This document shows, piece by piece, positions 2,701 to 62,421 of a stretch of 64,000 nucleotides of DNA. Each line of letters starts with the position of its first letter. Positions within the stretch are counted from its first letter, which is position 1. The position numbers and the translations under genes were made by a program. A model generated the notes under the pieces. That model was not told the origin of the DNA, searched no databases, and saw only the letters and a list, made by a program, of their open reading frames with translations. The DNA is from Eledone cirrhosa. Taxonomy: Eukaryota. The DNA lies in assembly GCA_964016885.1 (NCBI GenBank), contig OZ024742.1:174654001-174718000 (forward strand), in the 5' to 3' direction.

Positions 2701-3126
2701 TATGTGTGTGTGTGTGTGTCTTTATCTTTACTGTTTCTTTTTGTCCTGCAACTTAGAGGTTTGATAAAGAGCGATCAATAAAATAAGTGCAAAACTTGAA
2801 AAACCTACTGGGCTAACATGATCAACTAAATCCCTTTAAGGTGATGCTCCAGCTTTGCTGCAATCTAATTACTGAACCTAGTAAAAGACTAATATCATCA
2901 ACATAACATTGATATTCTCTAGCATTTTATAAAGATGGATGTATTTATAATAATTCATTGTTTTGACATCTCTGGTTTTTTCCTACTATCATTGACTATC
3001 CTACTCCATATCAGGTTTTATTGTTCAAATTAAAATTTGACAAGATTATATATTTTGAGATATTGAGAGTTAGAATATTTGATAAAATGACAAGTTGAAG
3101 TAACAACTATTATGTATTATACTAAC

Positions 3127-3310
3127 GGCGGTGGATTGGCAGTATCGGTAGAGGGACGGACGCCATGCTTTCCATCATAGTTACGTCCCTTTACGATCTG
3201 AGTTCAAATCCCGCCGAGGTTGACTTTACCTTTCATCCTTACGGGGTCGATAAAATAAAGTACCAGTAATGCACTGGGTAATTGCTGGCCTTGTGCCTAA
3301 AGTAGAAACA
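3127..3310 (+). mobile_element. tRNA-derived SINE with Deu/Nin-like domain, full length, 16-bp TSD
   Basis: A-box-like TGGCAGTATCGG, B-box GAGTTCAAATCC, CCTTTCATCCTTACGGGGTCGATAAAATAAAGTACCAG; TSD ATTATGTATTATACTA at 3109-3124 and 3311-3326. Confidence 0.8.
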
Positions 3311-3531
3311 ATTATGTATTATACTATCTAAAATGATACTGTCATTTTCTTTGCCAGTCTTCTGCAATGTTTTATATGATGATGATCATCATCATTTAAC
3401 GTCCATTTATATATATATATATTCTTTTGAATTTGAAGGTAAATATGTGAAAAGAAATTGACCATGTGCAGTTAAATACATCTAAATATAAAAAAAGCTG
3501 TTCCATAGTTGTTGTTATTATTATTATATAA

Positions 3532-3885
3532 GAGCTGTGGATTGGCAGTGTCTGAAGAGGGCCGGATGTCATGCTTTGCAACATAGAGTTGTGGCTCTTT
3601 ATTGTCTGAGTTCAAATCCTGCCGAGTTTAACTTTGCCTTTTGTTCGATAAAATAAAGTTCCAGTAATAAACTGGGGTCGATTTAATCGACTTTCCCCTC
3701 CCCCAAATTACTGGCCTTGTGCCTATACTAGAAATCATTATTATTTGAATTGGCAGTATTGGTAGAGGGCCGGACGCCATGCTTTGACTCATAGAGTTAC
3801 GGCCCTTGCCATTCGGCGTCGATAAAATAAAGTACCAGTAATGCACTGGATATTTGCTGGCCTTGTGCCAAAAGTAGAAACAATT
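3532..3885 (+). mobile_element. Two tandem copies of the same SINE family
   Basis: Repeated head ATTGGCAGT..GAGGGCCGGA and tail GGCCTTGTGCC...AGAAAYMATTATT. Confidence 0.75.
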
Positions 3886-3909
3886 ATTATTGTTGTTGTT
3901 GTTGTTGTT

Positions 3910-4430
3910 ATTTTCTTTTCAGAGAATTGTGTTGTTCCTCTATTGCTATTTGGATTGCTAGATATCAAGCTGTCACCTACAGCTTTAGGTATATTTAACA
4001 CCTTTTGTATGGTTCTTGCTTTGCCAAGCAAACAAGCCTTTCGTGGAATCCGGAAATTCCCTTCTAATATCTTCAATCACATATTATCATTATTTATTAT
4101 ATTACATCAGGATTCATCTGGTAAGGTATGTGTGGTTAGTAGATTACTACCTGTAACCTTAGGTATCTACATAATTTCAATAAGCTATTAAGAGCTAAAA
4201 ACTCTTCTGATGTTCTTCTCTGTTCCCTAGAGTTAAACGTTCTATGGAAGCTCTTCAGGACAGTCCACTCTAATCTCCTTCATCCATTTGTCTATTTTAT
4301 CACTCACAGTCCCATGTGCACCAATTATCACAAGCACAATCTTTTTAGATTCCGGGTTCCAACTGTAAGTGGTTGCCATTTTCTACTTTTTCATCTGCTT
4401 TCTTCCCAATCCTAGTATTAAAGGACTTGA
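3910..4430 (-). mobile_element. Decayed R4/Dong-type (RLE) LINE 3' fragments
   Basis: Translates to KACLLGKARTIQKVLNI, matching the C-terminus of the intact 9778-13170 ORF (KACLLGTARTLRYVLNI). Confidence 0.65.
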
Positions 4431-4439
4431 ATTTTTATT

Positions 4440-4640
4440 ATTAGGCAGTATTGTTAGTGTTGGACTCCATGTTTTGCAGCATAGAGTTTTCAATCTGAGT
4501 TCAAATCCTGGTGTGTTAGGCTTTGCATTTCACCTTTATGGGGTAGACAGAATACAGTATCAATAGTGCACTGGGGTTAATTTAATCAACTTTCCCCTCA
4601 CTCCAAATTGTTGGCCTAGTGCCTAAATCAGAAATCCTTA
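4440..4640 (+). mobile_element. Diverged Deu/Nin-like SINE
   Basis: CTGAGTTCAAATCC, TTTCACCTTTATGGGGTAGA, tail GGCCTAGTGCCTAAATCAGAAATC. Confidence 0.65.
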
Positions 4641-4669
4641 TTATTGATATCATTATTATTTTTTTTTTT

Positions 4670-6090
4670 ATAGCGCATCATTAATGCTTTACCGAACACA
4701 GGTCTGTGCACCTTGGGTATGAGCAGTGTAGTTTTTGCTGGTGTTACTATTTTATTGATAGTACTTTTTTTCAATATGTGTGAAGTGCCTAGTAGTGCTA
4801 TTTTTTGTATGCTGTATATATTTGTAAGTCCTGGGGATTTTGTTATGTATTTGCCTGAGTTTTTTTTTTATCATTCTCAAATCACTTATTATTATAGCTA
4901 TTGTTTCTGTTTTCATTTTCCACATTTGAGTTATTTCTATTGCTAGATATTTATATTTGGTGAGTTTCTCTATTTCCTTGGACGATATATTGTCGTCTGT
5001 GGGGATTGATGCATCTATTATTATTATCATCGTTATTATTATTTAGCATGCTATTACTGCATTATTGAGCACAACTCTGTGCACCTTGGCTATGGGCAAT
5101 GTGGGTTTTGGTGGTGTTTCTTTTATTTTCTTGAGAGTACTCTCTGTAATATGTGTGCGGTGCCTAGGAGTGCTTTTTTTATGTTGTATATGTTTGTGAG
5201 ACCTGGTGTTTTGGCTATGTATCTGTCTGCATTCTGTTTTATCATTCCCAGTGTTCCTATAATTATAGGTATTGTTTCTGTTTTCAACATCCACATTTGG
5301 GTTATTTCTATCTCTTAATCTTTATATTTGGATAGTTTCTCCATTTCCTTGGTAGAAATGTTGCCATCAGTTGGGATTGATACATCAATCGAAAGACATT
5401 TCTTTCCTTTATAGTCTTTGACTATAATATCTGGCTGGTTGGCTTTGATCTCCCTGTCTGTATCTATTGGCATATCCCAAAGAATGGTTGCTTTGTCATT
5501 CTCTGATAACTTTTCTGGTGGATGTTTGTACCATCCTTTGTCTGTGGATATGTCACAGTGTTGGCATAATTTCCAATGTATGTATGTCCCTACTCTATCG
5601 TGTCTGTGGATGCATTCCTTTTTGGCTAAGACAGGGCAGCTTGAGATAATGTAGTTAATGGTTTCATCCCCACTTCCGCATATTCTGCGTTTACTCACTA
5701 TGTTCTTTTTCATTATGCATTTCAGGTGATTTCTGGTTGGGAGACTTAGATCTTGTGCTGCAACCAAAAATCCCTCTGTCTCAGCTTTCAGTCCAGTGCT
5801 TTGTAGCCAGTTGTATGTGCTTTGTTTGTCTACTCCCTCACATGGCATTCTGGATTGTTTTTCGTATGGATTTTAAGTTTTTTACAATTTCTGCTGTTCT
5901 TTCTTGTTTGTTTTCTTATTTCTCAGAGCCATCTGTTAGTTTGGTATCTGTTTTGTATTTATTGGCTTCTTTGAAGACTAAGTGTAATGTTTTGTTTTGT
6001 TCAGGTTTTGTAGCTATTTTTATTAATTTTTCTTTGTTCTTCCTTAGATATTTTTGTAGTCTTATAGTTATTTTATAATACTTTTCTAGT
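4670..6090 (-). mobile_element. Two tandem 5'-truncated RLE-type (R4/Dong-like) LINE copies of a second family
   Basis: RICG..ETINYIISSC, RHDRVGTYIHW, ILWD, PDII..D, EKLSKYKD motifs (5315-5848); the shorter copy at 4670-5015 repeats IPTDDNISSKEIEKLTKYK; separated by (ATT)n. Confidence 0.8.
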
Positions 6091-6109
6091 TGCATAAGGC
6101 CCGTTCCTC

Positions 6110-6272
6110 TTGAGGGTCAGACGCCATGCTTTTCAGCATAGAGTTACGGCCCTTGCCATTCTGAGTTCAACTCCCGCTGAGGTTAACTTTGCCTTTCATC
6201 CTTACCGGGTCGATAAAATAAAGTACCAGTAAGGCACTGGGATAATTGTTGGCCTTGTGCCAAATTTAGAAA
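6110..6272 (+). mobile_element. Deu/Nin-like SINE, 5'-truncated
   Basis: Near-identical to the 3127-3310 body; ends AGAAACA followed by (ATT)n. Confidence 0.8.
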
Positions 6273-6293
6273 CAATTATTATTATTATTATTG

Positions 6294-7277
6294 TTCTTTG
6301 AGCCTCAGTCATTGATGCTATTTAACTGGAAAGTTTGTTGAAATGAATATCAAGCCACTACCTGCAGCCTCAGATATTCAGGACGTATCGGGAGGATCTT
6401 GCTGATCCCAGCAAGCATGCCTTTTGAAGTGTTCCAAAAAGCGGGGCTGGACCAATCTTCTTTAACCATTCTTGGAAACTCTTTGAGATAGTACCTAGTG
6501 CGCCTATGACAATCGAGACGACCTTGATTTCATGGCAGTTCCTAATCCTTTTTAACTCCCACTTTAAATCCTGGTATCAGTTAATTTTCTCCCTCTCCTT
6601 TTCTTGCACTCTCGTGTCAAATGGGCAGGCTACATCTACAATCAGGCACAATCTTTTTTCCTTGTTCAAAACCACCAGGTCAGGCCTATTGTGTTCTAAT
6701 TTCTTGTCCGTCTGTATCCTAAAATCCCATAGCACCTTCACTTGATCGTTTTCTATCACCGCCTCTGACTTATGCTCATACCACTTCTCAGAATGTGGTA
6801 AATTGTTTACTTTGCATAGATGCCAGTGGATCACCCTGCCTATCACATCTTGTCTCCATCCTTTATAGTGAGTCTGGGCTAGGTGTTTATACTCGGATAC
6901 AATGTGAGCCACAGTCTCTATCTCTCTCTCTCCACAGATCCTACACAGTGAGCTAGCCTCCTCTTTGTTAATATGGTGTTTCACCCACTTCGTTCTGAGG
7001 GCCTCCTCTTGTGCAGCCATTAGCATTCCTTCTGTAGCCTTTTTAAGGTCTCCTCTTTTTAACCAGTTCCATGTCTGTGGATCTCTAAGTTCAGTTTTCT
7101 TGAAGAAGGTACTATGAAGGGATTTTTCATGAAGGTTGCTCTTCCTCCTTGTTGTTATTTCCTCCTTGGACATCCCCTGTCTATTGTCTTCTCCTTCAGT
7201 ACAATTCTGAGCATTGTCTTCCTACTGTCAGTCACGTATTTGTGCAGGCTGTTTTTCTCCATCTGAACACAGCCCTC
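6294..7277 (-). mobile_element. R4/Dong-type LINE 3' fragment, same family as 9700-13402
   Basis: ORF 6577-7173 nearly identical in protein to the intact element C-terminus (CRICG, VLWDF, RPDLVV, IVDVACP); 3' end abuts (TAA)n. Confidence 0.9.
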
Positions 7278-9260
7278 ATGCGATATTTCATAGAGAGGGT
7301 GGTTAAGGAACCTGACACAGGTGGGGCCCTGATCAACTTGGATCAATCTAAAGCATTTGATACGGTCGACCATCGGTACCTGGCTGCGGTCCTCGAGGCG
7401 GCCGGCTTTTGGACCGTTTTTAGGGGCTGGATCGCTGCGATGCACAGCGACATCTGCTCGATTGTGAGGGTGAATGGTCACCTGTCGCAGCATTTCAGCA
7501 TCATGCGCTTTGTCAGCCAGGGCTCCCCCTCTCGTCCCTCTTGTATGTACTGGCCCTAGAGCCATTACTGCACAAATTGGAGACGATGGGGGTCCCACAC
7601 GAACTGGGATGCAGAAGATCTGTGTCCACTTACACCGACGACGTGACTGTTGTGGTTTCGAACACCAAATTCGTCCAGATGCTCTGCACCACTCTCAAGG
7701 AATACGAAGTGGTGACAGGAGCGAAAATAAACCAGGAAATGTCAGTGGGTTTGCAACTTGGCACCTGGAGAGGCAAGTCCATGCCATCCAACAGCATCGT
7801 GGGCCGCTGGAGGCAAGGACCGGTTAAATTGCTCAGGGTCTGGTTCGATCCAGATGGAGAAAAACTGGAGCGAGGTGACGAGCAGGGTGGCCTCTCTCAT
7901 CCGGAAATGGGTCGAGAGGAGACTGTCTCTGAAAGGTCGGGCGGAGTTGACGAATGCGTATATTGCGTCCGTCCTCTACTACCGCCTGACCGTCGTACCT
8001 TGCCCCCGCCCAACTCTGACCAAAATGGAGCGCCATCTCTTCCGCTTTTTGTGGAAGCGACATGCTTCCATGGTCAGACGATCCATTTGCTGTCAACACC
8101 CATTGCGTGGAGGACTAGCATGGCATGGCCGATGATGTGCAAATATGCGCTGAGACTGCGACATCTCTGGTGCCTGCTTGACGGTGAACAGGTGTGGTCG
8201 CCGTTTGCCAGACGCGCTTTTCCCCAGCTCATCTCCTTGATGAAGCTGCAGTCCTGGATCAGGAAAAGACCGAGGGTTAGTGCTTGGAAGCTGGAATGTC
8301 TCCAAGTACTCACCAGTCTCTACCAGCTGGGCACTAGTATCGGTGGAATATCCACCTCGGCATTCTATAGAGGGCTAATGGAGGGAAAGAGCGACGACGT
8401 TTTCGGAGAGACTCTGGGCGTCGAAGACGATCAGCTGTTTGCTCTGTTCAAGAGAACTTTCAGCATGGGGCCTATGGACAACTTCCAGAAATCCCTGGCC
8501 TGGCAGTGCTACCAGGGAGCATTGCCGGTTCGGGATAAGTTCTACAGGCACGGAGGTGCTGTCAGTCGAGCCTGTCCGAGATGCGCGCAGGGCGACGAAA
8601 CCATCCTGCACGCACTCGTTCAGTGCCCGAGAATTGCTGACTTGTGGAGCTATGTCGAACAGCTGCTGTCGCGTGTAGGACGGATCTGGTTATCGACTGA
8701 GTCCATTATGCAGATAGCCCCGCCAACCTTCTTTAAAGAGGAGGAAGGGCAGCCAGTTTTCATCTGCTTGCTGGCCATGGCGAAAGAGATTGTGTGGTGG
8801 ACAAGGTTGAAAGGGTTGAAGACGGGCACTTTCCTCTCCGGCCAATCCCTGATTAACTTTTTCAAGTTTAACTTGAAGAGGAAAATCAGAGTGGAGAGGC
8901 AAGTGCTGTCTTCTAGTAAGTTTGTTGAAAGGTGGGTGAAAGTGGCGAGTCTGGTCCAAGTGAATGGGCCCGCTCTGAGTATGTGCCTGTAGACTGAGGA
9001 GTGGGAAAACAGAGAGAGGGCGCTTGCCCTGGTGGTCAGGGTGGCTATGGTCTTTTGTGTGGTTTTCACCATGAGTGACCCTCGGAGGTTTTCCCTCTTT
9101 TGGGAATATTTGTTGTTTGAATTTTTTTTATCTCTATCCCGATTTTTATTTTGTTATAACCTGTTTACACTACCAAAACCCACTTTGTATCGTCCTGTAC
9201 TGTTCTATGCCGTTTGTAATGTTTTTCTTCATGTTAGCCCTTGCGGCCAATAAAGAAACC
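7274..9260 (+). mobile_element. Tx1/L1-group LINE 3' fragment (RT C-terminal half, zinc finger, 3'UTR)
   Basis: LDQSKAFDTVDH, YTDDV, CPRC..ETILHALVQC; homologous to 17516-19484; ends AATAAAGAAACC then (ATT)n. Confidence 0.9.
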
Positions 9261-9284
9261 ATTATTATTATTATTATTACAGCT

Positions 9285-9635
9285 GCATTTATCTTGCTTT
9301 ATGTTCATACGAGTTATCACCAAGTCACAACCAGTGACCTCAAGAGACAACAAGGTCCGCCATGTTCAAGAAAGAACATACATACTCACACATGCATCTT
9401 TAGGTGTTTAGACTCGTGATGTACTTATATTGACAGAATCTTCCTTAGTATATGGGCAGTTCCCATTACTACTATCTTTTGTATTTCTCCTATACGCGGG
9501 TTTCCTGGGATTTGCGATAAGTAATCATTAGACGCCTTAGGTATCATTCCTAGAGCACCTACAACCACTGGTATTGTTTTGGTTCTCAATTTCCACATTT
9601 TTCCAATTTCTATCTCCAGCTCAATTTTTCAAATG
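9285..9635 (-). mobile_element. Decayed RLE-type LINE 3' fragment
   Basis: Minus strand reads LEIEIGKMWKLRTKTIPVVVGALGMIPK, typical of the RLE C-terminus; bounded by (ATT)n. Confidence 0.7.
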
Positions 9636-9699
9636 TTTTTATACATACATTCTGGTCTATTGGAACGGACATTATTATTATTATTATTATTGTTATTGT

Positions 9700-12600
9700 T
9701 ATTCCTTGAATCTCAGTCATTGATGTTGGTTAACTGGAAAGTCCGTTGGATTGAATATCAAGCCACTACCTGCAGCCTCAGATATTCAGGACGTATCGGA
9801 GGGTTCTTGCCGTTCCAAGCAAGCATGCCTTTTGAAGCGTTCCAAAAAGCGTGAAGGGGCCGATTTTCTTTAACCATCCCTGGAAACCTTTGGAGATAGT
9901 CCCCAGTGCGCCTATGACAATCGGGATCACTTTGACTTCATGGCAGTTCCAAATCCTTTTCACCTCCCACTTTAGGTCCTGGTATCGGTTAATTTTCTCC
10001 CTCTCCTTCTCTTGCACTCTCGTGTCGAACGGGCAGGCCACATCCACAATCAGGCACGATCTTTTTTCTTTGTCCACAACCACCAGGTCAGGTCTATTGT
10101 GTTCCAGTTTTTTGTCCGTCTGTATCCTAAAATCCCACAGCACCTTCACCTGATTGTTCTCCATCACCGCCTCTGGCCTATGCTCATACCATTTCTCAGA
10201 ATGTGGTAGATTGTTTACTTTGCACAGGTGCCAGTGGATCACCCTGCCCATCACATCGTGTCTCCAGCCCTTATAGTGGGTCTGGGCTAGGTGTTTACAC
10301 TCGGACACAATGTGAGCCACAGTCTCCTCTCTCTCTCCACAGATCCTGCACAGTGGGCTAGCCTCCTCCTTGTAGATATGGTGCTTCAACCACTTCGTTT
10401 TGAGGGCCTGCTCCTGCGCAGCCATTAGCATTCCTTCTGTAGCCTTTTTGAGGTCTCCTCTTCTCAACCAGTTCCATGTCTGTGGATCTCTAAATTCAGT
10501 TTTCTCAAAGAAGGTACTATGAAGGGATTTTCCCTTAAGGCTGCTCTTCCTCCTTGATGTTATTTCCTCCTTGGGTATCCCCTGGCCTACTGTCCCCTCC
10601 TTCAGTACAGCTCTGAGCATTGGCTCCTTACTATAGGTCACGTATTTGTATAGGTTGTTTTTCTCCATCTGAACACAGTCCTCTATGCTGATAAGACCTC
10701 TTCCACCCTCAGATCTCCTTAGGTAGAGTCTATCGACATCACTCCTCTTGTGGAACATGTTGTAGATAGTCAATAGCTTCCTAGTCTTCCTATCCATTTC
10801 TTTTTGTTCAGCAACATTCCATCTCAGAATTCCCGCACTGTACCTAATAATAGACACAGCTCGGGAATTTACTGCGCTTATGGCATTTCTGCTGTTCAGA
10901 TGTGACTTCAATACGCTCCTTACTCTCCGAATGTATTCAGTTCTTAACAATTCCTTCATTTTTTTGTTCTTTATGCCATCAGCCTCCAGAACGCCCAAAT
11001 ACTTGTATCCTTCCTCAGAGTCAATTTCCTTTATCATCTCACCTGTTGGTATCTGGATCCCGTTACTTCTGCTCAACCTACCCCTCCTCATCACAATGAC
11101 TCCACATTTACCAATACCAAACTGCATACATATATCACTGCTGAAAATACGGACAGTGTCAACAAGCACATCCAACTCCTTCTCACTTTTCCCGAAGAGC
11201 TTAAGGTCGTCCATGAAGAGGAGGTGATTGATGGTAAGCTCTCCCCTTCCCAACTTGTATCCTGCTCTCACTTTCCGCAGCATAATGGTCAAGGGCATCA
11301 GGGCAAGGACAAACAACAGAGGGGACAGGCTATCTCCCTGGAAGATACCTCTCTTGATCTTCACGCTTCCCAAGGATACTCCAGTTGATGTCAACTCTGT
11401 CTCCCAGGACCCCATACTCCTGCCCAGCAACTGTCTGATGTTATCTGCCACCCTGAAGATCTCCAGGCTTTTGGTGATCCAGGAATGAGGCACCATGTCA
11501 AATGCCTTTCTGTAGTCTATCCATCCCATGGCAAGATCAGTGTGTCTCCTCCTGCAATTCCCCATTACCATCTTATCAATAAGCAACTGGTCCTTTGTAC
11601 CACGTGACTTCTTTCGGCATCCTTTCTGTTCGTCCGGCAACAAGTTGTTTGTGTGGAGGTGATGGTAGATTTCCTCAGACACAATGCTCGTCAACAGTTT
11701 CCACATTACGGGCAGACATGTGATAGGTCTATAGTTGGTGACATCATTACCCTTGATTTGGTCTTTCATTATCAGAACTGTGGTACCTTTTGTCAACCAC
11801 TCTGGCACCTCACCCGACACCAAGCAGTCATTGAACATGGCCGTCAGCTTCGGGTGGAGGGATGTTAAATGTTTAATCCAATACCCCTGCACACCATCTG
11901 GGCCTGGTGATTTCCAGTTGGTTAGTTTTTTGGCTTGCCCCTTAAGAGTTTCAACTGTGATACTCAAATCAGTCTGTTGCTGTGCCTGCTCACCGATCTC
12001 CCTCTGTACTGTCTCAATCCACCCTGCCTGGGCATTGTGTCTAACATCCTGCTCCCATATTCCTCTCCAGAATGTTTTAGCTTGTTCCGCCCCAGGGATC
12101 AAGTCGGTGCCTCTTTCTTTCCCCTCAAGCTGTCCAAACAGCATCTTCTGGTTGTTGTCGAACATGCGGTTCTGTTTATACCGACTGACTCTGTTCTCGT
12201 ATCGCCTGATTTTGGCACTCTTTGCTACAATGCGTTGCTTCAATTCCTCTATGATAATATTTAGCTTTTTACTCCTAGTTTTGTATTTTATTTCCAGTCT
12301 ATTTTTAGTGCCTATGTTTTTTAGTGTCCCATTCAGTAGTGACTCAAGCTTTCCTATGTCATTTCTCATTTCCCCGATTTGCCCACTCAGTCGCTTCTTC
12401 CACCACGGCTCTGCTCTTTCTTGTCTGTTGTTTCCTCTCGCTTTTATACCAAGTAGTTTCCTCACCGTATTTGCTGTTGCTTTGAGGATATTGTTGCACT
12501 GGTGAAGACTCCTCGCCTCAAGGTATGGGATGACTTTGTTTACCTTAGCTGTTGTTTCTTTTAACTTTTTCCTGTCTACAAATCTTAGGTTCATAGGTCT

Positions 12601-13402
12601 CCCACTATCATTGTTCAACTCATCTACCACTAAATTTAGGATGTCAACCGAATCTTGTCCTAGCCCGTCAGCATTCATCTCCTCAGTGGCCGTATCTCTG
12701 TTCCAGGTATTATTTATCTCAGTATTCAGATCATTGTCTGCTTCGGGTGGTTCCTTCGCTCTCAGGACCTCCTCACCTTCATTTCCCGCCGGCTCGCTTG
12801 TCTGGCATACTACACCCGCCATCTCCAAGCCATTCTCTCTGCTCAGTTCCTCCAGTTCCAGCTCGCTTATCCACCCATTAGTTCTTATTACCCGAGCCTG
12901 CCCGGCCAATTTTTGTTCATCTAATTTAAATAAACCAATCTCGTTCCAGATGTTATGCATCCGTCTCCTGTAGCCCCTCTCCTTGGGGTTACTTTTCAGG
13001 TAGCATTGCATAGCAGTTCTATTCAATTCTTTCGTCCAGTTGGTTCTGGCCCCTTTCCTTCTTCTTCTTCCTCCAACATCAGCAGTATTTCGTTGACAGT
13101 CAGGTTCCTGCTGCTGAGCCAGGGGGCACCTGTTGGGTGAGAGTCTGTCACATGACGTTCTAGTCTCCATTTCACCGTTATTCGAACTGTTTATGTTCGA
13201 TATTTAAACACTCTTATCGAGGATTGGCGAATGTATGTTTACATAGCCATCTGTGGATCCGCCATCCCACTTGGCCCTTGTGTGGCATTATCACCACGCT
13301 GTATACGGACACACATAAACAAACAAACACACGGGCAGAAAGGGCCCCAAAAATGAATAAGCATAAGTTTCATTGTAATGTAGTATTCGAATGTCCGACT
13401 TA
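9700..13402 (-). mobile_element. Apparently full-length R4/Dong-clade non-LTR retrotransposon in (TAA)n
   Basis: Single intact ORF with RT and RLE, short UTRs, (AAT)n tracts on both sides (9671-9703, 13448-13488). Confidence 0.9.
9778..13170 (-). CDS. Reverse transcriptase / restriction-like endonuclease polyprotein (1130 aa, intact)
   Basis: WKSPGPDG, YRPITCL, QKGC, WIDYRKAFD, GIFQGDSLSP, LLFMDDLKL, YKYLG; CCHC CRICG..ETVAHIVSEC; RHD; RPDLVV..IVDV; K..RYQDL. Confidence 0.95.
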   Translation of the reverse strand: METRTSCDRLSPNRCPLAQQQEPDCQRNTADVGGRRRRKGARTNWTKELNRTAMQCYLKSNPKERGYRRRMHNIWNEIGLFKLDEQKLAGQARVIRTNGWISELELEELSRENGLEMAGVVCQTSEPAGNEGEEVLRAKEPPEADNDLNTEINNTWNRDTATEEMNADGLGQDSVDILNLVVDELNNDSGRPMNLRFVDRKKLKETTAKVNKVIPYLEARSLHQCNNILKATANTVRKLLGIKARGNNRQERAEPWWKKRLSGQIGEMRNDIGKLESLLNGTLKNIGTKNRLEIKYKTRSKKLNIIIEELKQRIVAKSAKIRRYENRVSRYKQNRMFDNNQKMLFGQLEGKERGTDLIPGAEQAKTFWRGIWEQDVRHNAQAGWIETVQREIGEQAQQQTDLSITVETLKGQAKKLTNWKSPGPDGVQGYWIKHLTSLHPKLTAMFNDCLVSGEVPEWLTKGTTVLIMKDQIKGNDVTNYRPITCLPVMWKLLTSIVSEEIYHHLHTNNLLPDEQKGCRKKSRGTKDQLLIDKMVMGNCRRRHTDLAMGWIDYRKAFDMVPHSWITKSLEIFRVADNIRQLLGRSMGSWETELTSTGVSLGSVKIKRGIFQGDSLSPLLFVLALMPLTIMLRKVRAGYKLGRGELTINHLLFMDDLKLFGKSEKELDVLVDTVRIFSSDICMQFGIGKCGVIVMRRGRLSRSNGIQIPTGEMIKEIDSEEGYKYLGVLEADGIKNKKMKELLRTEYIRRVRSVLKSHLNSRNAISAVNSRAVSIIRYSAGILRWNVAEQKEMDRKTRKLLTIYNMFHKRSDVDRLYLRRSEGGRGLISIEDCVQMEKNNLYKYVTYSKEPMLRAVLKEGTVGQGIPKEEITSRRKSSLKGKSLHSTFFEKTEFRDPQTWNWLRRGDLKKATEGMLMAAQEQALKTKWLKHHIYKEEASPLCRICGEREETVAHIVSECKHLAQTHYKGWRHDVMGRVIHWHLCKVNNLPHSEKWYEHRPEAVMENNQVKVLWDFRIQTDKKLEHNRPDLVVVDKEKRSCLIVDVACPFDTRVQEKEREKINRYQDLKWEVKRIWNCHEVKVIPIVIGALGTISKGFQGWLKKIGPFTLFGTLQKACLLGTARTLRYVLNI

Positions 13403-13408
13403 GTTTTT

Positions 13409-13489
<81 letters not shown>
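13403..13489. repeat. Poly(T) tract followed by (ATT)n between the two divergent LINE 5' ends
   Basis: Direct inspection. Confidence 0.9.
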
Positions 13490-13706
13490 TAATGCTATGG
13501 TTGACGGAGGCTCGGCTCTGTAAGGTATTGTAAATTTTGACCGCTATAACAATTGTAAATTGTTTAAATCTTTAACCAACTTGTAGACAAAAACACCCTC
13601 CTCCTCGTGAGAGGGGTCTTTCTGCCCGATATTTGGCCCTTCGGGGTTAAATAACCGCTTATTGGGGTTTTGTGCCCAATATTTATTTTAAACAAAAAAA
13701 AACAAC

Positions 13707-15646
13707 ATGGCTACGAAAAAGAATTTTCATAGGTCACTCCCTCTCATTCCGTCTTCTTCTTCCTCAATCGTCACTACAGCAGAGAGAAGATTGTCTCTCT
13801 CCCTCCCTTCTCTAAATGTGTCTCTCTCCCTCCCTTCTCTTTCGAAAGCGACGCTAGTAAAGAAAAATCACGTGCAAAGCGTGCAAGATTTCTCCACGAC
13901 GACAACAACGAAAAAGGTGTGCGGGAAATACGAAAACCCATTTCATTCGTCTGACGTCAGGAATAATAGCAGTAGCAGCCGTAATAACAGCAGCAGCAGC
14001 AACAGTGACAAGGAAAACAACAGTAGCAGCCGCAACAGCATCAGTAGCAGCATAAACAACAATAGCATTAGCAGCAACAGCAACAACAACAGCAACAGCA
14101 GCAACAACAACAACAACCACAGCAACAGCGGCGGCGTCAATAGTCGTAGTACCTGCAGCAACAACAAAAGTAACAGCAGCTCTGACGACAACAACAACAA
14201 CAGCAGCAAAGAAAACCAATCTCGTTTGCAGGTATCGCAAAGAACCTGGAAACCATCCTCATAACAGATGAGGAATTAGAGGAAGCGAAGAAGATGGTGA
14301 CGAAAGCCGGACACCGAGCAATCTGCAAGGCAGCCAGAACATTTTTCGAAACCCAACAGCAGTGTACGGTCACGTACCGTACAGTAAGCACAAAATCCCG
14401 TAGGGTTGAAAGAGCCACAGAGACTCAACTACAAAAAGCCTTAGGGTCTGTGTGGCAGCGGAAAACGCACATCACCCGAGGCAAGAAATATTCCACCGTA
14501 GACGTGCTTTTTGCCACACCCCAGGAGGCAAAGGCTCAATCCTTAGTGACCCTAAGGAGCGAGGAAATGGTGTTGGTGCCCTCCTACTGCGGGCAAAAAA
14601 TTGTGAGGGTCAAACTGACCCATGGCCCCTTCTTGGCTGGCCGCGTCTGTCCTCGTCAGAATCGAGGACAAAACAACTGTACTGCAAGTACCGAAAATTG
14701 AGATGTTAATCCAAACCAACCAGGAGTGCATCGAAGCTATACCGGATGTGATAGACTTCGATAACGGCACTCAACTGCCCATAAGTGTTGAGGGCAAACG
14801 CCCGAAATGCTTTCGCTGTGGATCGAAGACTCACCTCAGTGCCTTCTGCAACGAGAAGACCCTGAGAAAGGAGAAAACCCCCTCCTTCCGAAACCGGCTC
14901 CACGGCTATCAGCAACAGGACAAGCGGCAACCAGGAACGATAGGTCCGTGGCACCCATACCCACACCACGGAAATCAAAAACAGCAGCAGCAGTGGAAGT
15001 ATTAACAACAACAACAGCAATACCAAATGAAGCTGCAACAGAGACTCCAGTGCAAACATCACCAACAACAACAAGTGAAAGAGTGGAGCTGGTACCCCTC
15101 CCCGACCTCACAAAATCAGACATGGAGTGTGAGGTGGGAGAGGAATGGCAAAAGGTCGTAAGAAGGCACAAACGCAGAAGCAGCGCATCGTCGCCTTCGA
15201 AAAGGGAAGAAAGAAATGAAAAAAGGGTAAAGGCTACCGCAAAGAGACTCACAGCAGCAACACCACCAACACCATCACCACCCACACTAGCACCACCATC
15301 ACCACCGGCGACAACCCCACCGCCAACAACAACAACACCTTCAACACCTCCACCACAAGCACCAACATCGCAAACACAACAACAAAACACACACACCCAG
15401 CAACAACGACAAGAAAATAGCAGAACTCCACCCCACCACCAGAAAAACAAATGCACGGCAATAAATACACACAACAAGAAACTAATGACTTACATAATTG
15501 AACACACAGACATTTCAGAGCACGACTACATAATACCAGCACCAATCAAAACGCCAACTAACATAAGACTGCTAGAAATAGCACAGAAACAATACACACA
15601 CATTAAAACGAATTCCCCAACGCATTTTGTGATTTCAGAGACCTAG
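13707..15646 (+). pseudogene. Tx1-type ORF1 (gag-like), frameshifted
   Basis: Overlapping ORFs 13707-14264, 14294-14701, 14622-15005, 14807-15646; CFRCGSKTHLSAFC (CX2CX4HX4C); N/S-rich and P/T-rich low-complexity tracts. Confidence 0.75.
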
Positions 15647-15827
15647 GAGGGACTCTCAACCGAAGAGTATATTCAGACATACTCATAGAAGAGCCGACGA
15701 CCAGCCGAAGGGACGATTCAACGGTCCCTTCACCAGACGATCAAGTGAAAAGGGATGGAAAAACCATCCTTCCTCTACGAAAAGTACGGTAAGTGGTCTT
15801 TCCCATCTTTTCCACTCTATTTTAAAC

Positions 15828-18800
15828 ATGACCTCACTCAGAATAGGCAGCATAAATGCGCGTGGCTTGGGGTCGTCATGGATGCAGGGTCACCTGCTCA
15901 ACGACCTCAGGTCACTAAACATAGATGTAGTGGGCATCAGCGAGACCAGAATCTCCGAAGCACGGGCCTTCGCACCGATCTTCGGCGGCTACGATGTGTA
16001 CGCATCTCCCAGCCGTCGTGGATCGGAGGGTGGAGGAGTTGCTGTGCTTTTTCGGAGAGGTTTGGATCTCACCAGACGGGCCATATTCCTGGACCCAGAG
16101 GGTAAGTTGGTGGTGCTGGACGTGACCAGCGGAGACGGGCAAGCTTTCAGGCTAGTGGCTGTCTATGCCACGACAGGAGCAGGGCGGCCTGATTTCTTCC
16201 GGCGTCTGGAGACCTTTCTTGGAACGTCCCACTCTTTAGTGTTAGTGGGCGACGGGATCTTAGATGCACGCTGGGACTGTGTGGGATTAGCGGATAGGGG
16301 TGGAGGGTGCAAGAGCCTCACCAACCTGCTCAGGCGTTTTGAACTGTCTGACAGATACCGATTGGATTTCCCGAATGTGCCAATGTGGACTTGGCCAATT
16401 CGCATAGGATCATCCAGATCATATCTAGATAGAGTATTTTGTAGGGAAATAGATAGGTCTAGCATAGGCTGTCAACAATTCAAGATAGTCAGCTACACGG
16501 ACCACAAATTCGTGATCTGTGTGCTTGACTTAGATAGGCTTCATAGACGAGGACCCGGCTACTGGAAGCTAAACGCGTCCTTACCAGCGCACAAGGCCTA
16601 CAGATACCGGATTAGCGAACTAGTTAAGCGGGCGTTGACGGGGGCCATCGTCAACAACAAGTGGTGGTTTGCTCTGAAAAGAGCGATTAGTATAGAATCC
16701 ATTAGGTATAGTAAGGCTTTAGCAATAGAGAAAAATAGAGCAGAGGGAGAACTAGTTAGAAAATTAGACGAGGCGCTTAGCAAAGGCATTGCGACCGACG
16801 TGCTTGCGGCTAAATTGGCCCTTGACCAATTCTTTAAATGCAAAGCACGAAGGCTGCGTTGTCAGAGCTAGGGTGCGTGCTCTCAGATACGAGGGGACGA
16901 AAGCCGTACAATGGGCCCAGTGGCGGAGGCGCGTCGTGGAAACAAAGCCACGATCCAGTCTTTGGTGGACCACGACGGGCGCATGCTACTCGATCCCGGG
17001 AAAATGTGTGAAGCTTTTCAGCGACACTTCGCACAGCTGTTCGGGGGCAGCGGTGGGCCGGGTCGAGGGATGGACATTAGTGTCTACCTCGACGGACTGC
17101 CGCGGCTCTCGGCCACTGAGGCGGAGTGTTGCGAAAAGCCGATAACAGCTGCTGAAATACGGGAGGCAATGACTGGCTGCACAAGGGGTAAATCGCCTGG
17201 TTTGGATGGTCTGCCCTATGAACTTTACTTACAGATGCCAGACTTGTTCGGAGGCATCTTGGCGGACGTCTACTGCAACTGGCAACAGAACGGGAGAATT
17301 CCCAGCTCTGTGAGCCGAGGAGCGGTGGCACTGCTGAGAAAGGATCCGAACAAGGGGGATAACATAGATAATTTCAGGTCCATAACTCTGCTAAACACTG
17401 AGTTCAAGATTGTGGCCAAGGTGCTAGCAAAGAGGTTGGCGCCTGTCGTTGGTGGTCTGGTGGGAGAGGCGCAGACATTCGCCATTCCCGACAGATCCAT
17501 CCGCAACAACCTCCACCTCATGCGATACATCGTAGAGAGGGTAGCTAGGGAACCTGGAACGGGTGGGTCCTTGATCAATTTAGATCAGTCGAAAGCTTTC
17601 GATAGGGTCGACCATCGTTACCTAGCGGCAGTCCTGAGGGCGGCTGGCTTTGGCCCCGTCTTCAGAGGCTGGATCGCTGCCATGCACAGCGACATCTGCT
17701 CTGTGGTGAGAGTGGACGGTCACCTTTCGTAACCGTTCAACATCATGCGCTCGGTCCGCCAAGGATGTCCCCTCTCGTCCCTCTTGTACGTATTGACTCT
17801 CGAGCCATTACTGCACAAACTGGAGACGTTGAGGGGCGTCCCGTGCGAACTAGGATGCGGGAGATCCGTGTCAGCATATGCGGACGATGTCACCGTAGTG
17901 GTGTCGAACGCTAAACACATCTAGGTGATCGGCACTACACTAAGAGAATACGAAGCGGTGACAGGAGCAATGATCAACCAGGAAAAGTCAGTGGGCCAGT
18001 AGCTCGGCACCTGGAGAGGCAGGTCCATGCCGTCCAAGAGCGTCGTCGGACGCTGGACGGACGGACCGGTTAAATTGCTAGGGGTCTGGTTCGGTCCGGA
18101 CCCCCAGACGGAAAAAAACTGGGACGAGCAGGGTGGCTTCTCTCACCCAGAAATGGGCGGAGAGGAAGCTATCCCTGAAAGATCGAGCGGAGGTGGCTAA
18201 CGCGTACATCGCGTCTGTCATCTGCTACCGCCTGACCGTCGTACCTTGTCCTAAGACCCGCCAGACTGCGCTGGAGCGTTTGCTCTTTCGCTTTTTGTGG
18301 AAGGGACGCGCTTCGATGGTCAGGCGGTCCATCTGCTATAACACCCGCTACGTGGAGGGCTGGGCATGCCGTGGCTGATGATGCGCAGACACGCGCTCAG
18401 GCTACGACATCTCCACCTCTTCCTCGACGGTGATCAGGTGTGGTCGCCGTTTGCTAGACACGTATTTCCCCAGCTCGTTTCCTTGACGGAGCTGCATTCC
18501 TGGGTCAAGCGAAGACCGAGAGGGAGCGCCTGGACACTGGAATGTCTTCAGGCGCTCACAGCCCTCGACCAATCGGGCAATGTGATCGGTGGAAACTCCA
18601 CCTTGGCGTTCTATACAGGATTAGTGGAGGGGAAGAGCGACGACGTACTTGGGGAAACTCTAGGCGTCGAGGAAAATCAACTAGCCAATCTCTTCGGAAG
18701 AACTTTCGGGCCGGGACCTATGGACAACTTCCAAGCATCTCTGGCCTGGCAGTGCTACCGAGGAGCCTTGCCAGTTCGGGATAAACTCTAAAGGCATGGA

Positions 18801-19235
18801 GGTGCCGTCAGCCGGGCATGTCCGAGATGCGCGCAGGGCGACGAAACCGTCCTGCACGCACTCGTCCAGTGTCCGAAAATTGCTGAATTGTGGATTTATG
18901 TCGAACACCTGCTGTCGCGTTTAGGACGGATCCGGCTATCATCTGAGTCCATCGTGAGGATTGCCCCGCCCTCCTCCTTTAGCCGGGAAGGGCAGGCAGT
19001 TTTTATCTGTCTGGTGGCCATGGCGAAAGAGATAGTATGGTGGACACGTTTGAAAGGGCTGAAGACGAGCACTTACCTCTTCGGTGATGCTCTGATTGAC
19101 TTTTTCAAATTTCATTTGAAAAGGAAAATCAGAGTAGAGAGGGAAGTGCTCTCTTCCCAGCATTTTGTTGAAAGATGGGTGAGAGAAGCAAGAATGGCCC
19201 GAGTGAATGGGCCTACTCTGAGTATATATCTGTAA
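15828..19235 (+). pseudogene. Tx1-type ORF2 (APE endonuclease + RT + zinc finger), with stops and frameshifts
   Basis: SINARGL, ISETR, SYLDRVF, TDHKFV, GYWKLN, KSPGLDGL, LDQSKAFDRVDH, RQGCPLS, AYADDV, CPRC..HALVQC. Confidence 0.9.
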
Positions 19236-19484
19236 ATTAAAGGTGGAAAACTGGGAGAGGGCACTTGCCTTGGTGGTCAGGGTCACTGTGGCCTTTTACT
19301 GGGCTTTCTCCACAAATGTCCCTCCGAAGTCTCCCCCCTATTGGGGAATTTTTCATTGTTATTTTTGTTACATCCTCTGTTTTTGTTTTTTACACGCAGA
19401 AATGCCCATTTGTACTGTCCTACATTGTCCTGCACTGTCCTTAATGTCTACTTTATGTAAACCCTTGTGGTTAATAAAGAAATC

Positions 19485-19516
<32 letters not shown>

Positions 19517-21820: not shown

Positions 21821-22109
21821 ATGACTAGAATAGCTCCAGAAACTCTTCAGCTTGTCAGTTTCAAAGTGGCACAGCTAAAACCTTCAAAACTGGGATGAAG
21901 AAAAGTATGTCTGAAGATAGGAGAGGAAAGTGAATGTATACTTTGTACAATAATTAAAATGGAAGGTAGTCTCTGTCTGATTTCTCAAAGGCAAGGATCA
22001 CACATACAAATTCTTATGGATAGGTAAAGCACTGGAAATAGTGAAATAGTTGTTGGCAGAGAAATGGATAAAAAAATAATTGAAGGAAAGTAATTAACAG
22101 AATACTGTA

Positions 22110-25100
22110 TATCATCATCATCATCATCATCATCGTTTAACGTCCATCTTCCACGCTTGCATAGGTTTGGACGGGAGTTTTCCCACTTGAGGCAAGAGTG
22201 GTTGTCTTGCTCGCATAGGACTGTCTGGTGGGTTTTCTATAGCTGGATGCCCTTCCTAACACCAACCGCATTTACAGTGTGGACTGAGAGGTTTTTACCG
22301 TGTTACCGACATGGCCACATTACAGCGTGGACTGTGTGTTTTTATTTGTCGTGACACCTATATGCCCTCATTTGTTTCGGACTGGATGTTGTGGTACCAA
22401 CATAACTTTACATTGAAAGGGGTGGTGTGGATGGGGTGGAGTAGTGGGATGGGGGTGTATTTTTGTTAGAGGTGCCTACTGACTGTAGTAGGTTTCACTT
22501 TGTATTTAGGTAAGGCGGGTCTACTGTGTTACTGTGTAGCGCCAAAGATCTCGGTCCAGTGACATTGTCTTGGAGAGGTGCAAGTGTGTGAGGTCGGAAT
22601 TTATTAGGTTGTCCCAGATTTTTCTGGCTCTGCCTACTCCGTGGCTACTGTCTATTTTTATTGCCCTGCACTTTTTTATACAGCTGTCGTCTTTCATGCG
22701 CATCACGTGACCGTACCAACATAGTCTTCTCTCGAGTAAACAACATCTGATCCCTCTTATTTCTAATTTTTCCCTTAGTTCGTTTATGCTTTGCCGTTCA
22801 CGTATATTACTATTACACATCCAGCAGAGCATGCAAGCCTCATTCCTCTCCAGTCTGCGTATATCCTCTGCACACAATGCGCTCGTCTCGCTGCCATGTA
22901 AAATTGCTGTTCGTATGCAGGCATCATACAGCCTGCCTTTGATTTTCAGAGAGAACCCTTTAGCGGCTAATAGTGGTATAAGCTCTCGGAACTTTTTCCA
23001 TCCAGTTCTGACTCTAGCTACTGTACTTTCAGAGCACCCTCATCCACTGCTGATTTTGTTACCCAAGTAACGGAAGGTGTCCACTATTTCTATAGAACCA
23101 TCTGTGCAATGGAATGAGCTAGTATTTAGTGGGCACTTTCTGCTACTTATTGCACCAGGGCACCGGCCACATATAAATCTATATTCTTAGTTAGCTTACC
23201 TGTGATCCCACTACATCTTTTATGCACCCATAGTTTGCATTTGGGACATAAAATGGAGTTTCTGCCTACTCCTTTTCTACACACTGAGCATGGCCATTTC
23301 CCGGATGGGACCGGTGCCCTATTTTCCTTCATACAAACTAGAACTTTAGTCTTAGACAGGTTAATTTTAAGGCCTTTTGATTCTAGGCCATGCTTCCATG
23401 TTTGGAATTTCTTCTCTAGTTCAGCCATTGATTCAGCTATGAGTGTTAGATCATCTGCGTATAGGAGTTCCCATGGGCAGCCGGTCTTGAACTCCACTGT
23501 TATAGCCTGAAAGGCAATAATAAATAGTAGGGAGCTAAGAATGGAGCCCTGATAAACACCAACTTTTACGCTAAGCTCTTCACTATATTCGTTGTTAACT
23601 TGCTGACTGTTTCTTTATACATGGCTTGTATAGCTCTCAAAAGCCATTCATCAACACCTAGTTTTCTAAGAGCCACCAGATAATGGAATGGGGGACTCTG
23701 TCAAAGGCTTTCTCCAAGTCGACAAAAGCTAAGTATAGGGGTTTACTTTTAGCTAGGTACTTCTCCTGTAGTTGTCGTACAATGAAAAGAGCGTCTGTGG
23801 TACTTTTACCTGACACAAACCCGAACTGCATTTCATCTAGATCAATTCGCTCTCTGATTAGTTGCGCTATTACTTTTTCTGTGACCTTCATGACATGGTT
23901 GATTAATTTAATGCCTCTATAGTTACTCCTATCTAGGGCATCTCCTTTACTCTTGTAGCAGTTAATGATGATGCTGCTACGCCAGTCCTTTGGAACAACC
24001 CCATTCTGTATGACTTTGTTTACTATCCGAGTGACCATAGTGTGTCCCACCGTTCCAGAAGCTTTCAGCATTTCAGCAACTATTTCCGAAGGCCCAGCCG
24101 CCTTACCCATCTTCATATCTTTGATTGCCTTACTTATTATACTACCTTCGACTAACACTGCTGGTCCCTCTATTGGATCAATGTGGGGGAGACTGTCTTT
24201 CTCCCATTTATTCCCCTCATTTAGTAGCCTTTCGTAGTGAGATTTCCAAGCTACCTTCTTATCAGCATCAGTGATGGCAAGTACACCATTATCAGTAATG
24301 ACACACTTCTCCCCGACAATATCACGGTTTTGCTTGACACATTGCCTAGCAATCCTGAACAACTCACGTTTTTGGTCCTCGCGTTGTAGAACATGCTTGA
24401 ACTCTCTTTCCTCTGCTTCCCTTCTTGCGAAGTACACTAGTCTCCTAGCTTCCCTCCTGGCCACTTGATAGTCTTCTCTACTTCCCCCATCCCGCCATAC
24501 TTTCCAAGCCTGCTTTTTGGCCTTAATTTACTCCTCCACCTTACTGTTCCACCACCACGTTACTCTCCTCCTGCCTATAGGCCTGCTCCAGCCACAGACT
24601 TCATCTGCCGCCATCAGCAGGTTTGCTTCCAGGAATACCCACTGTTCCTCTATATTGTACAACTCTAATTGCTCTTCCTTACTGTCGAAAGCATCAAGTA
24701 ATATGCTTTTAAATGTATTACTGGCTGTGGGGTCCTTTAGCTTCCATATTTTTCTCCTGAGGATAGTCCTCTTCTGCTGTCGAGTACGTCTCGTCCTGAC
24801 TATGAGGTCGCTAATTATCAGTCTATGTTGGGAGGTGCATTTTTCATGGGGGAGGTATTTAGTGTTTACAACAGACACTCTGTCACGTCTTCTGGTAAGG
24901 ATATAATCTACCTGGCTGGTATATTCCCCTGATCTGTAGGTGATCAAGTGATTGTCTCATTTTTTTGAAGTTAGTGTTACAGATAGTTAGATTATTTGCG
25001 TCACAGAATTCCAGGATTCTGGAGCCTTCCTCATGTTTAGTATCAAACCCATAGCCTCCATGGATTCCGTCATAGCCGTCACAATGTTGTCCAACGTGAC

Positions 25101-30344: not shown

Positions 30345-30615
30345 TGGGGGAAGAATTGGCAGATCCATTAGAATATCAAATTGAATGCTTTATGGATTTC
30401 CTTCCAGCTCTCTGCACTCTGAGTTCAAATACCATCAAGGTCAACTTTGCCTTCCATCATTCAAATCCCGCCGACGTTAACTTTGCCTTTCATCCTTACG
30501 GGGTCAATAAAATAAGGTACCAGTAATGCACTGGTAAATTTCTGGCTTTGTGCCAAAAGTAGAAACAATCATTTTGAGATCGATAAATAAGGTACTAGTC
30601 TGTTACTGAGGGTTG
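30345..30615 (+). mobile_element. Nested SINEs: younger 5'-truncated copy (about 30461-30567) inside an older copy
   Basis: Duplicated TTCAAAT...AACTTTGCCTT(C/T)CATC; ATCATT on both sides of the insert; old copy resumes GATCGATAAATAAGGTACTAG. Confidence 0.6.
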
Positions 30616-32097: not shown

Positions 32098-32218
32098 TGT
32101 TTCTACTTTTGGCACAAGGCCAGCTATTACCCCAGTGCATTACTGGTACTTTATTTTATCGACACAGTAGGGATGAAAAGCAAAGTTAACCTCAGCAGGA
32201 TTTGAACTCAGAATGGCA
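32098..32218 (-). mobile_element. Deu/Nin-like SINE, 5'-truncated
   Basis: Reverse complement of the 3127-3310 family 3' half. Confidence 0.75.

Positions 32219-46486: not shown

Positions 46487-46491
<5 letters not shown>

Positions 46492-60923: not shown

Positions 60924-61000
<77 letters not shown>

Positions 61001-61002
<2 letters not shown>

Positions 61003-62416: not shown

Positions 62417-62421
<5 letters not shown>
61001..62421 (+). mobile_element. 5'-truncated RTE LINE (same family as 22110-25800) inserted in (TA)n
   Basis: ELLYADDL, FRYLGD, GSETW; 3'UTR and (GAT)n tail. Confidence 0.9.

What the first reader, a model, noticed from the sequence alone, without database searches (positions are those of the whole stretch)
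6294..19484. The same two unrelated LINEs (R4/Dong RLE-type and Tx1 APE-type) occur twice as a head-to-head pair in (TAA)n
Seen: pair B is a full Dong (minus, 9700-13402) and a full Tx1 (plus, 13490-19484) with 5' ends under 90 bp apart. Pair A is the 3' ends of the same two families in the same geometry (6294-7277 minus, 7274-9260 plus), directly fused. In the blocks compared by eye, A and B differ mostly at third codon positions with protein conserved, so they look like different once-active subfamilies rather than a neutral local duplication. Known: Dong/R4 elements target TAA repeats, and several Tx1-clade elements are microsatellite-specific. Inference: the families either read the same microsatellite from opposite strands and repeatedly co-insert, or travel or are expressed as a divergent bipartite unit.
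Basis: partly seen in the sequence, partly recalled or inferred. Interest (0 to 1): 0.75.

Follow-up and report, generated by a model that had tools for sequence, protein, structure and literature searches.

The report
Opposite-facing LINEs sharing one microsatellite
Two unrelated kinds of jumping gene in this animal genome sit in the same ATT repeat facing opposite ways, likely because each cuts a different strand of it, so head-to-head pairs like these likely arise from separate insertions at different times and not from a two-part unit.

Summary
Both head-to-head Dong/Tx1 pairs are there, but they are not a bipartite unit. Genome-wide exact-pattern counts give 15 full-length head-to-head junctions, 379 tail-to-tail and 561 same-family tandems. 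Normalised, head-to-head is the rarest class (15 seen, 21 expected at the tail-to-tail rate). Among 100 consecutive young Dong copies, Tx1 lay on the 5' side 19 times and on the 3' side 21 times; all 40 faced the opposite way. Both junctions are single-copy. The halves differ in age: Dong B 0.1% and Tx1 B 2.5% from their closest relatives. Dong B is not full length (about 1.17 kb of 5' UTR missing) and Tx1 B is broken. Best reading: both families target (ATT)n, likely nick opposite strands, and stack by independent insertions, like TRAS/SART in silkworm telomeres. Pair A is likely a one-off microhomology fusion. An (ATT)n-specific Tx1-like family was not found in my paper searches. The scan has already noted this system at other places in this genome (8 notes listed).

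The parts
4639..6075 (-). Two older, decayed 3' fragments of another Dong-like family ('DongC'), head-to-tail (4639-5018, 5016-6075)
   Evidence: tblastn of Dong B ORF, 38% and 31% identity; the two copies are 76% alike
6096..6272 (+). Short multicopy repeat (SINE-like) ending in an ATT tract; its tail is the tract that holds Dong A
   Evidence: several copies in the window and in loci; SINE label inferred
6275..6292 (.). (ATT)6 target tract
6294..7277 (-). Dong-type LINE, 3' 984 nt (older subfamily A): CCHC and RLE region, frameshifted
   Evidence: 88% to Dong B, 94% to nearest copy elsewhere, 3.6-3.9% private differences
7274..7285 (.). Direct Dong|Tx1 fusion junction: 3-4 nt perfect microhomology inside an imperfect 11-13 nt match, no ATT spacer; single copy
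7275..9260 (+). Tx1-type LINE, 3' 2 kb (older subfamily A), decayed
   Evidence: 77% to Tx1 B, about 89-90% to nearest copies, 4.8% (non-CpG) to 6.8% private differences; RVT_1 and zf-RVT
9261..9278 (.). (ATT)6 tract joining the Tx1 A tail to a DongD tail (tail-to-tail junction)
9281..9672 (-). 5'-truncated 3' end of a third Dong-like family ('DongD')
   Evidence: tblastn; a longer copy is 35% identical to Dong B residues 749-1141; 93% to it
9671..9703 (.). (ATT)n tract at the Dong B 3' end
9702..13403 (-). Young Dong-type LINE (subfamily B): intact 1141-aa ORF (9778-13203) with RT (FMDD), CCHC at aa 952 and PD..D RLE motif at aa 1037; lacks about 1,170 nt of the family's 5' UTR
   Evidence: 99.8-100% to other copies
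13404..13489 (.). Spacer of pair B: poly(T) (A-rich UTR tract at the Dong truncation point) plus (ATT)14 target repeat
13490..19484 (+). Full-length Tx1-type LINE (subfamily B): ORF1 with a CX2CX4HX4C knuckle; ORF2 with APE, RT and zf-RVT; both ORFs broken
   Evidence: 2.5% private differences
19485..19510 (.). (ATT)8 tract at the Tx1 B 3' end

Best explanation
A Dong/R4-type (RLE) LINE family and a Tx1-type (APE) LINE family sit in the same (ATT)n/(AAT)n microsatellite in fixed opposite orientation, likely because their endonucleases nick opposite strands, and the two head-to-head pairs are likely products of independent insertions at different times. Shown: Dong reads TAA and Tx1 reads ATT in sense; polarity is fixed; ages are unequal; junctions are single-copy; there is no head-to-head excess. 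Inferred from target-primed reverse transcription: Dong nicks the ATT-reading strand, Tx1 nicks the AAT-reading strand, and each insertion splits a tract and leaves repeat on both sides, so chains grow. With fixed polarity, any Dong to the left of a Tx1 is head-to-head and any to the right is tail-to-tail. Inferred order here: Tx1 A and Dong A (oldest), then Tx1 B, then Dong B, which dropped into the tract between DongD and Tx1 B and lost its 5' UTR. Pair A lost its spacer in one microhomology-guided event: either a later deletion, or 5' joining of a truncated insertion with target deletion; I cannot tell which.
For: Genome-wide counts: Dong 3' 4108, Dong 5' 628, Tx1 3' 6580, Tx1 5' 2390. Junctions within 100 nt: head-to-head 15, tail-to-tail 379, Dong-Dong 105, Tx1-Tx1 456. 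Expected head-to-head at the tail-to-tail rate 21.0, P(<=15)=0.11. Paired sample of the first 100 listed Dong B-type copies: Tx1 on the 3' side 21, on the 5' side 19; discordant 15 vs 13, P=0.85; 40 of 40 Tx1 neighbours opposite, 78 of 78 Dong neighbours parallel. From the Tx1 side, by eye: Dong A/B directly left of 9 of 30 5' ends and directly right of 9 of 30 3' ends. An ATT tract precedes 30 of 30 full-length Tx1 5' ends and, by the script's rule, 87 of 100 Dong 5' ends. Pair A junction: 1 of 40 scored hits spans both halves. Pair B geometry: 1 match, the window itself. Private divergence: Dong B 0.1%, Tx1 B 2.5%, Dong A 3.9%, Tx1 A 6.8%. Four other direct Dong/Tx1 fusions have different breakpoints: three head-to-head (L151, L219, L340) and one tail-to-tail (L120); microhomology is 5, about 1, about 1-2 and 3 nt. 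Precedent: TRAS and SART enter (TTAGG)n in opposite directions on opposite strands (PMC7265360, passages).
Against: No nicking assay, so strand choice is inferred from orientation. Tx1 targeting looks looser at truncated 5' ends: 4 of 16 had an ATT tract by the script's rule, against 70 of 80 for truncated Dong. Insertions are not fully independent in the counts: same-family tandems exceed mixed junctions (odds ratio 8.4), which needs shared timing or later tandem amplification. Exact patterns see only young copies of one subfamily each. The 100-copy sample is from the first 84 Mb of one chromosome. One of the 21 '3'-side' Tx1 neighbours is a 5' fragment, not a true tail. Ages rest on the nearest of about 350 fetched loci, and the ten relatives used for Dong A are only 91-94% alike.
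Confidence: 0.88

Rival explanations
1. Dong and Tx1 travel or are expressed as a divergent two-part unit (shared bidirectional promoter or co-mobilisation).
For: Two head-to-head pairs lie within 13 kb. Fifteen full-length head-to-head pairs exist genome-wide, far above random placement.
Against: Only 15 of 628 Dong 5' ends and 15 of 2390 Tx1 5' ends matching the patterns are so joined; this is the lowest normalised rate of the four junction classes. The sample gives 19 vs 21. Both junctions are unique. The halves differ in age. Dong B lacks most of its 5' UTR and the spacer is simple repeat. One RNA cannot carry both 3' ends in a divergent layout (established TPRT logic).
Confidence: 0.02
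2. Pair A is an old local duplication of a B-like pair, followed by deletion and neutral decay.
For: Same order and geometry; A is a subset of B.
Against: dN/dS 0.24 (bootstrap 0.14-0.39 and 0.18-0.30); dS 0.32 for Dong against 0.61 for Tx1. Each A half is closer to copies elsewhere (94%, 90%) than to B (88%, 77%). Flanks differ. Dong B is younger than any such duplication could be.
Confidence: 0.01
3. Only Dong is sequence-specific. Tx1 merely carries or adds an ATT tail, which creates tracts that Dong then uses; the clustering also reflects survival in gene-poor zones.
For: Truncated Tx1 5' ends often lack ATT (12 of 16 by the script's rule). Tx1 3' ends nearly always carry ATT. An ATT tail alone would give opposite polarity for tail-to-tail pairs.
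Against: Full-length Tx1 5' ends are preceded by ATT tracts of variable length in 30 of 30 position-ordered copies and 29 of 29 other best-scoring copies. A tail cannot explain that. Head-to-head is as common as tail-to-tail.
Confidence: 0.09

Closest known systems
TRAS and SART in Bombyx (TTAGG)n telomeric repeats (PMC7265360, passages read)
   Same: Two LINE families enter one simple repeat on opposite strands and in opposite directions; the endonuclease sets the target.
   Different: TRAS and SART are both APE-type (R1 clade, recalled) and telomeric. Here one is RLE-type and one APE-type, and the target is a dispersed trinucleotide microsatellite at thousands of sites.
Dong (R4 clade; Bombyx Dong, DongAg, DongBg, Darwinula Dong1/2) (PMC3812793 and PMC7998251, passages)
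   Same: Single ORF with RT and RLE, no N-terminal zinc finger, (TAA)n target.
   Different: Nothing essential seen. Very young here (99.8-100% identical copies; 628 full 5' ends), with a tandemly repeated 5' UTR of about 1.4 kb.
Kibi (TC)n, Koshi (TTC)n and crocodilian (TTCC)n/(TTTC)n Tx1 families (PMC4494074 and PMC3812793, passages)
   Same: L1-group APE elements specific for a microsatellite.
   Different: The target here is (ATT)n, not named for Tx1 in the passages read or in searches; it is shared with an RLE element. Figure 3 of PMC4494074 and its supplements could not be seen and may list such a target.
Recently active Dong-R4 and L1-Tx1 families in Octopus vulgaris (PMC13282606, part 1 of 3 and passages)
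   Same: Both clades are listed as recently active (5 families/1129 copies; 13 families/421 copies).
   Different: The text seen gives no target specificity or orientation. That this genome is an octopod comes from recall and earlier scan notes, not from a call of mine.

Membership tests
R4/Dong clade | Single ORF with RT followed by CCHC and PD-(D/E)xK RLE; no APE | tested here: met
   RVT_1 E 6e-23, no APE domain; CCHC at aa 952, RPD..D motif at aa 1037; weak alignment to the R2 RLE region, i-E 0.07
R4/Dong clade | No N-terminal zinc finger (unlike R2) | tested here: met
   only one CCHC-type match in the ORF, at aa 952; no N-terminal Pfam zinc finger
R4/Dong clade | (TAA)n target in sense orientation | tested here: met
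   repeat tract at 30 of 30 3' ends by eye; ATT tract at 87 of 100 5' ends by script rule
R4/Dong clade | RT phylogeny groups with named Dong/R4 references | not testable with these tools
   no named Dong/R4 sequence among the 120 homologues listed; best solved relatives are R2 proteins, ahead of L1
Tx1 clade (L1 group) | Two ORFs; ORF2 with APE, RT and C-terminal zinc motif; L1-group RT | tested here: met
   Exo_endo_phos, RVT_1 and zf-RVT in a 1138-aa ORF2 of sister copy L107; best solved match human L1 ORF2p E 4e-49 against R2 E 3e-19
Tx1 clade (L1 group) | ORF1 with gag-like CCHC knuckle (feature recalled) | tested here: inconclusive
   CX2CX4HX4C visible in the ORF1 fragment at 14619-15005, but no Pfam zf-CCHC or RRM hit on the 730-aa ORF1 of L098
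Tx1 clade (L1 group) | RT phylogeny groups with named Tx1 references rather than other L1-group clades | not testable with these tools
   no named Tx1 among 92 homologues; the best named one is an uncharacterised fish protein at 26%
Target-specific Tx1 family (Kojima's rule: one target type in more than 20% of flanks) | Shared target in the flanks | tested here: met
   ATT tract before 30 of 30 full-length 5' ends; rule from PMC4494074 passage
Bipartite or co-mobilised element | Same junction at several loci, excess of one geometry, matched ages | tested here: not met

The most novel reading that the evidence does not exclude
An (ATT)n-specific Tx1-type APE family has converged on the Dong target from the opposite strand. 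This gives a TRAS/SART-like two-way system across the RLE/APE divide, on a dispersed microsatellite, that builds self-extending polarised chains at thousands of loci. The spacer-less Dong|Tx1 fusions may be deletion scars of these chains.
Probability: 0.7. Interest if true: 0.5.

Novelty: new variant of a known kind. Interest (0 to 1): 0.36.

Why it matters
The striking claim, a two-part Dong-Tx1 unit, is refuted with genome-wide numbers, so head-to-head pairs in this genome need no special explanation. What remains is a natural test of convergent target choice: two unrelated nuclease folds (RLE and APE) on the two strands of one trinucleotide repeat, with one family young enough (copies 99.8-100% identical, ORF intact) for biochemical study. 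It also explains where young LINEs pile up in this genome, and warns that chains and fusions can produce chimeric repeat-library entries.

Tried and rejected
Bipartite unit and local duplication: rejected (see rivals). Rfam scan of a full Dong 5' end (L059) and of the pair B junction locus (L001): 0 matches at E<=0.1, so no ribozyme or known RNA was found. Sequencing-run search for the pair B junction: no RNA holder listed; this says nothing about expression. Laying 4 runs on the pair A junction: no listed contig bridges it and depth is dominated by other copies, so it is uninformative; the junction is not independently confirmed against an assembly error. Two protein searches gave no named Dong or Tx1 reference, so no clade tree was built. 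The planned larger Tx1-anchored sample was only partly obtained: 36 sites, of which 2 did not reach the 5' end and 8 proved to carry a different 5' module, leaving 10 full-length and 16 truncated. Target-site duplications cannot be read inside pure repeat. Literature searches found no paper on Dong and Tx1 sharing a target or on an (ATT)n Tx1. Kojima and Fujiwara 2004 and Repbase were not read. Supplements of PMC4494074 could not be read.

Full report
Observation. The four elements are at the stated places. The minus-strand element B encodes an intact 1141-aa ORF with RT, a CCHC motif and an RLE-type PD..D motif, and no APE. The plus-strand element B has an ORF1 region and an APE-RT-zinc ORF2 closest to L1 among solved structures, but both ORFs are broken. 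Two details need correcting. Dong B is 5'-truncated: 28 of the 29 other top-scoring copies fetched continue upstream, the complete ones by about 1,170 nt. The 86-nt gap is poly(T) plus (ATT)14. The window chain, left to right, is: decayed Dong-like copies, SINE, (ATT), Dong A fused to Tx1 A, (ATT), a third Dong-like fragment, (ATT), Dong B, (T/ATT), Tx1 B, (ATT). It therefore holds tail-to-tail and tandem junctions as well as the two head-to-head ones.

A versus B. Dong A/B are 88% and Tx1 A/B 77% identical. Nei-Gojobori dN/dS is 0.24 for both (298 and 557 codons); dS is 0.32 and 0.61. Each A half is closer to copies elsewhere (94% and 90%) than to B. Against those nearest relatives dN/dS rises to 0.44-0.68, as expected for decay after insertion. 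Private differences from the ten closest fetched relatives are: Dong B 1 of 981, Tx1 B 35 of 1412, Dong A 31 of 802, Tx1 A 96 of 1410 (57 of 1183 outside CpG). The halves of pair B thus differ greatly in age. Those of pair A are closer, and their order is uncertain.

Genome-wide test. Exact patterns give whole-genome counts: Dong 3' ends 4108, true Dong 5' ends 628, Tx1 3' ends 6580, Tx1 5' ends 2390. With both families fixed in polarity, four junction types are possible. Within 100 nt I counted head-to-head 15, tail-to-tail 379, Dong-Dong 105 and Tx1-Tx1 456. Per pair of available ends the rates are 1.0, 1.4, 4.1 and 2.9 x 10^-5. At the tail-to-tail rate 21 head-to-head pairs are expected; 15 are seen (P(<=15)=0.11). 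Random placement would give about 0.4 and 0.02, so the families cluster strongly, but not head-to-head. These patterns miss truncated ends and other subfamilies, so I also read both flanks of the first 100 listed Dong B-type copies. Tx1 of any subfamily was on the 3' side in 21 and on the 5' side in 19 (discordant 15 vs 13, P=0.85). All 40 Tx1 neighbours were opposite in orientation, all 78 Dong-family neighbours parallel, and 38 and 36 flanks had no library match. By eye, Dong A/B lay directly left of 9 of 30 Tx1 5' ends and directly right of 9 of 30 Tx1 3' ends. The 39 other full-length Tx1 loci show the same mix.

The two junctions. Only the window itself spans both halves of the pair A junction among 40 scored hits of 5554 candidates; a second copy would be expected to rank near the top. 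Pair B's geometry has one match, itself. At the A junction the two families share 3-4 identical bases inside an imperfect 11-13 nt match. Four other spacer-less Dong/Tx1 fusions turned up at different breakpoints: L151, L219 and L340 head-to-head, and L120 tail-to-tail, with 1-5 nt overlaps. The tail-to-tail case removed both 3' ends, so it is likely a deletion after insertion, which shows that such deletions occur. Truncated Tx1 5' ends often lack ATT (4 of 16 have it by the script's rule), while truncated Dong ends nearly always have it (70 of 80). So 5' joining of a truncated Tx1 with target loss is also possible for pair A. Public reads did not confirm or refute the junction.

Mechanism. 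Shown: shared target, fixed opposite polarity, unequal ages, unique junctions. Inferred from target-primed reverse transcription: the first nick falls on the strand antisense to the element, so Dong cuts the ATT-reading strand and Tx1 the AAT-reading strand. Each insertion leaves repeat on both sides, which serves as target again. ATT tracts of variable length before 30 of 30 full-length Tx1 5' ends argue for real targeting rather than tail addition alone. Same-family tandems are in excess (odds ratio 8.4). Shared timing and later amplification likely explain this: one search lists eight Tx1 junctions about 6.05 kb apart on C1 near 441.1 Mb, five with the same variant spacer.

Known systems. 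Dong targets (TAA)n in insects, molluscs and cnidarians (PMC3812793, PMC7998251, passages). Tx1-clade Kibi, Koshi and crocodilian families target (TC)n, (TTC)n and (TTCC)n/(TTTC)n (PMC4494074, passages). TRAS and SART enter telomeric repeats in opposite directions on opposite strands (PMC7265360, passages); this is what the system works like. Dong-R4 and L1-Tx1 are listed as recently active in Octopus vulgaris (PMC13282606, part 1 of 3 and passages). PMC4640811 and PMC9004415 were seen as passages and added only background. Membership of the R4 and Tx1 clades is met by anatomy and target but could not be tested by tree. I found no paper on an (ATT)n Tx1 or on Dong and Tx1 sharing a target. Repbase, Kojima and Fujiwara 2004, and the figure and supplements of PMC4494074 were not seen and may bear on this.

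Earlier scan notes. Eight notes on other pieces of this genome reach the same shared-target reading. My reading and the TRAS/SART search came before that look-up. These notes are not independent evidence. One gave the lead on truncated Tx1 ends, which I checked.

Verdict. The pairs are real but are an ordinary by-product of a shared, polarised target. The bipartite reading is refuted. The residual novelty is the (ATT)n Tx1-like family and the RLE/APE two-way arrangement: new variant of a known kind, interest 0.36.

Noticed in passing
L335, L341, L343, L344, L349, L354, L332, L333 (match to window Tx1 B stops at about window 15744): 8 of 36 Tx1 B-type 3' ends carry the same ORF2 (93-95%) behind a different 5' UTR/ORF1 module; the switch point lies just upstream of ORF2. 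It looks like a 5' module swap between Tx1 subfamilies.
   Followed up: partly
L050 and L059, about 1,170 nt upstream of the point matching window 13403: The full Dong 5' UTR has a tandem unit of about 340 nt in variable copy number, each with a TATA-like word and a poly(A) tract; no Rfam match.
   Followed up: partly
G000:C1:441092469-441134920: Eight Tx1-Tx1 junctions about 6.05 kb apart, five sharing a variant spacer: likely tandem amplification after insertion.
   Followed up: no
L151, L219, L340 (head-to-head), L120 (tail-to-tail): Other spacer-less Dong/Tx1 fusions with short microhomology and different breakpoints.
   Followed up: partly
L046 and window 13403: Two independent Dong copies are truncated at the same A-rich 5' UTR position; many Dong truncations end on bases that run into the ATT tract, suggesting microhomology in 5' joining.
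   Followed up: no
window 22108-23537 and 61000-62424, fragment at 46488-46904: A 1.4-kb dispersed repeat, two copies 92% alike in opposite orientation, not identified; decayed RT-like sequence at 23414-24383 minus.
   Followed up: no
window 3109-4645, 6096-6272, 30460-30574, 32098-32218, 37852-38040, 39716-39934: Many copies of one SINE-like repeat ending in ATT; in loci it mostly lies parallel to Tx1 and supplies tracts used by Dong.
   Followed up: partly
L180, L182, L285, L327: Some Tx1 and Dong 5' junctions abut (CTT)n rather than (ATT)n, often as compound CTT/ATT tracts.
   Followed up: no
P0001: A 1710-aa database protein related to Dong B has two RT domains, possibly a read-through of tandem elements.
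   Followed up: partly
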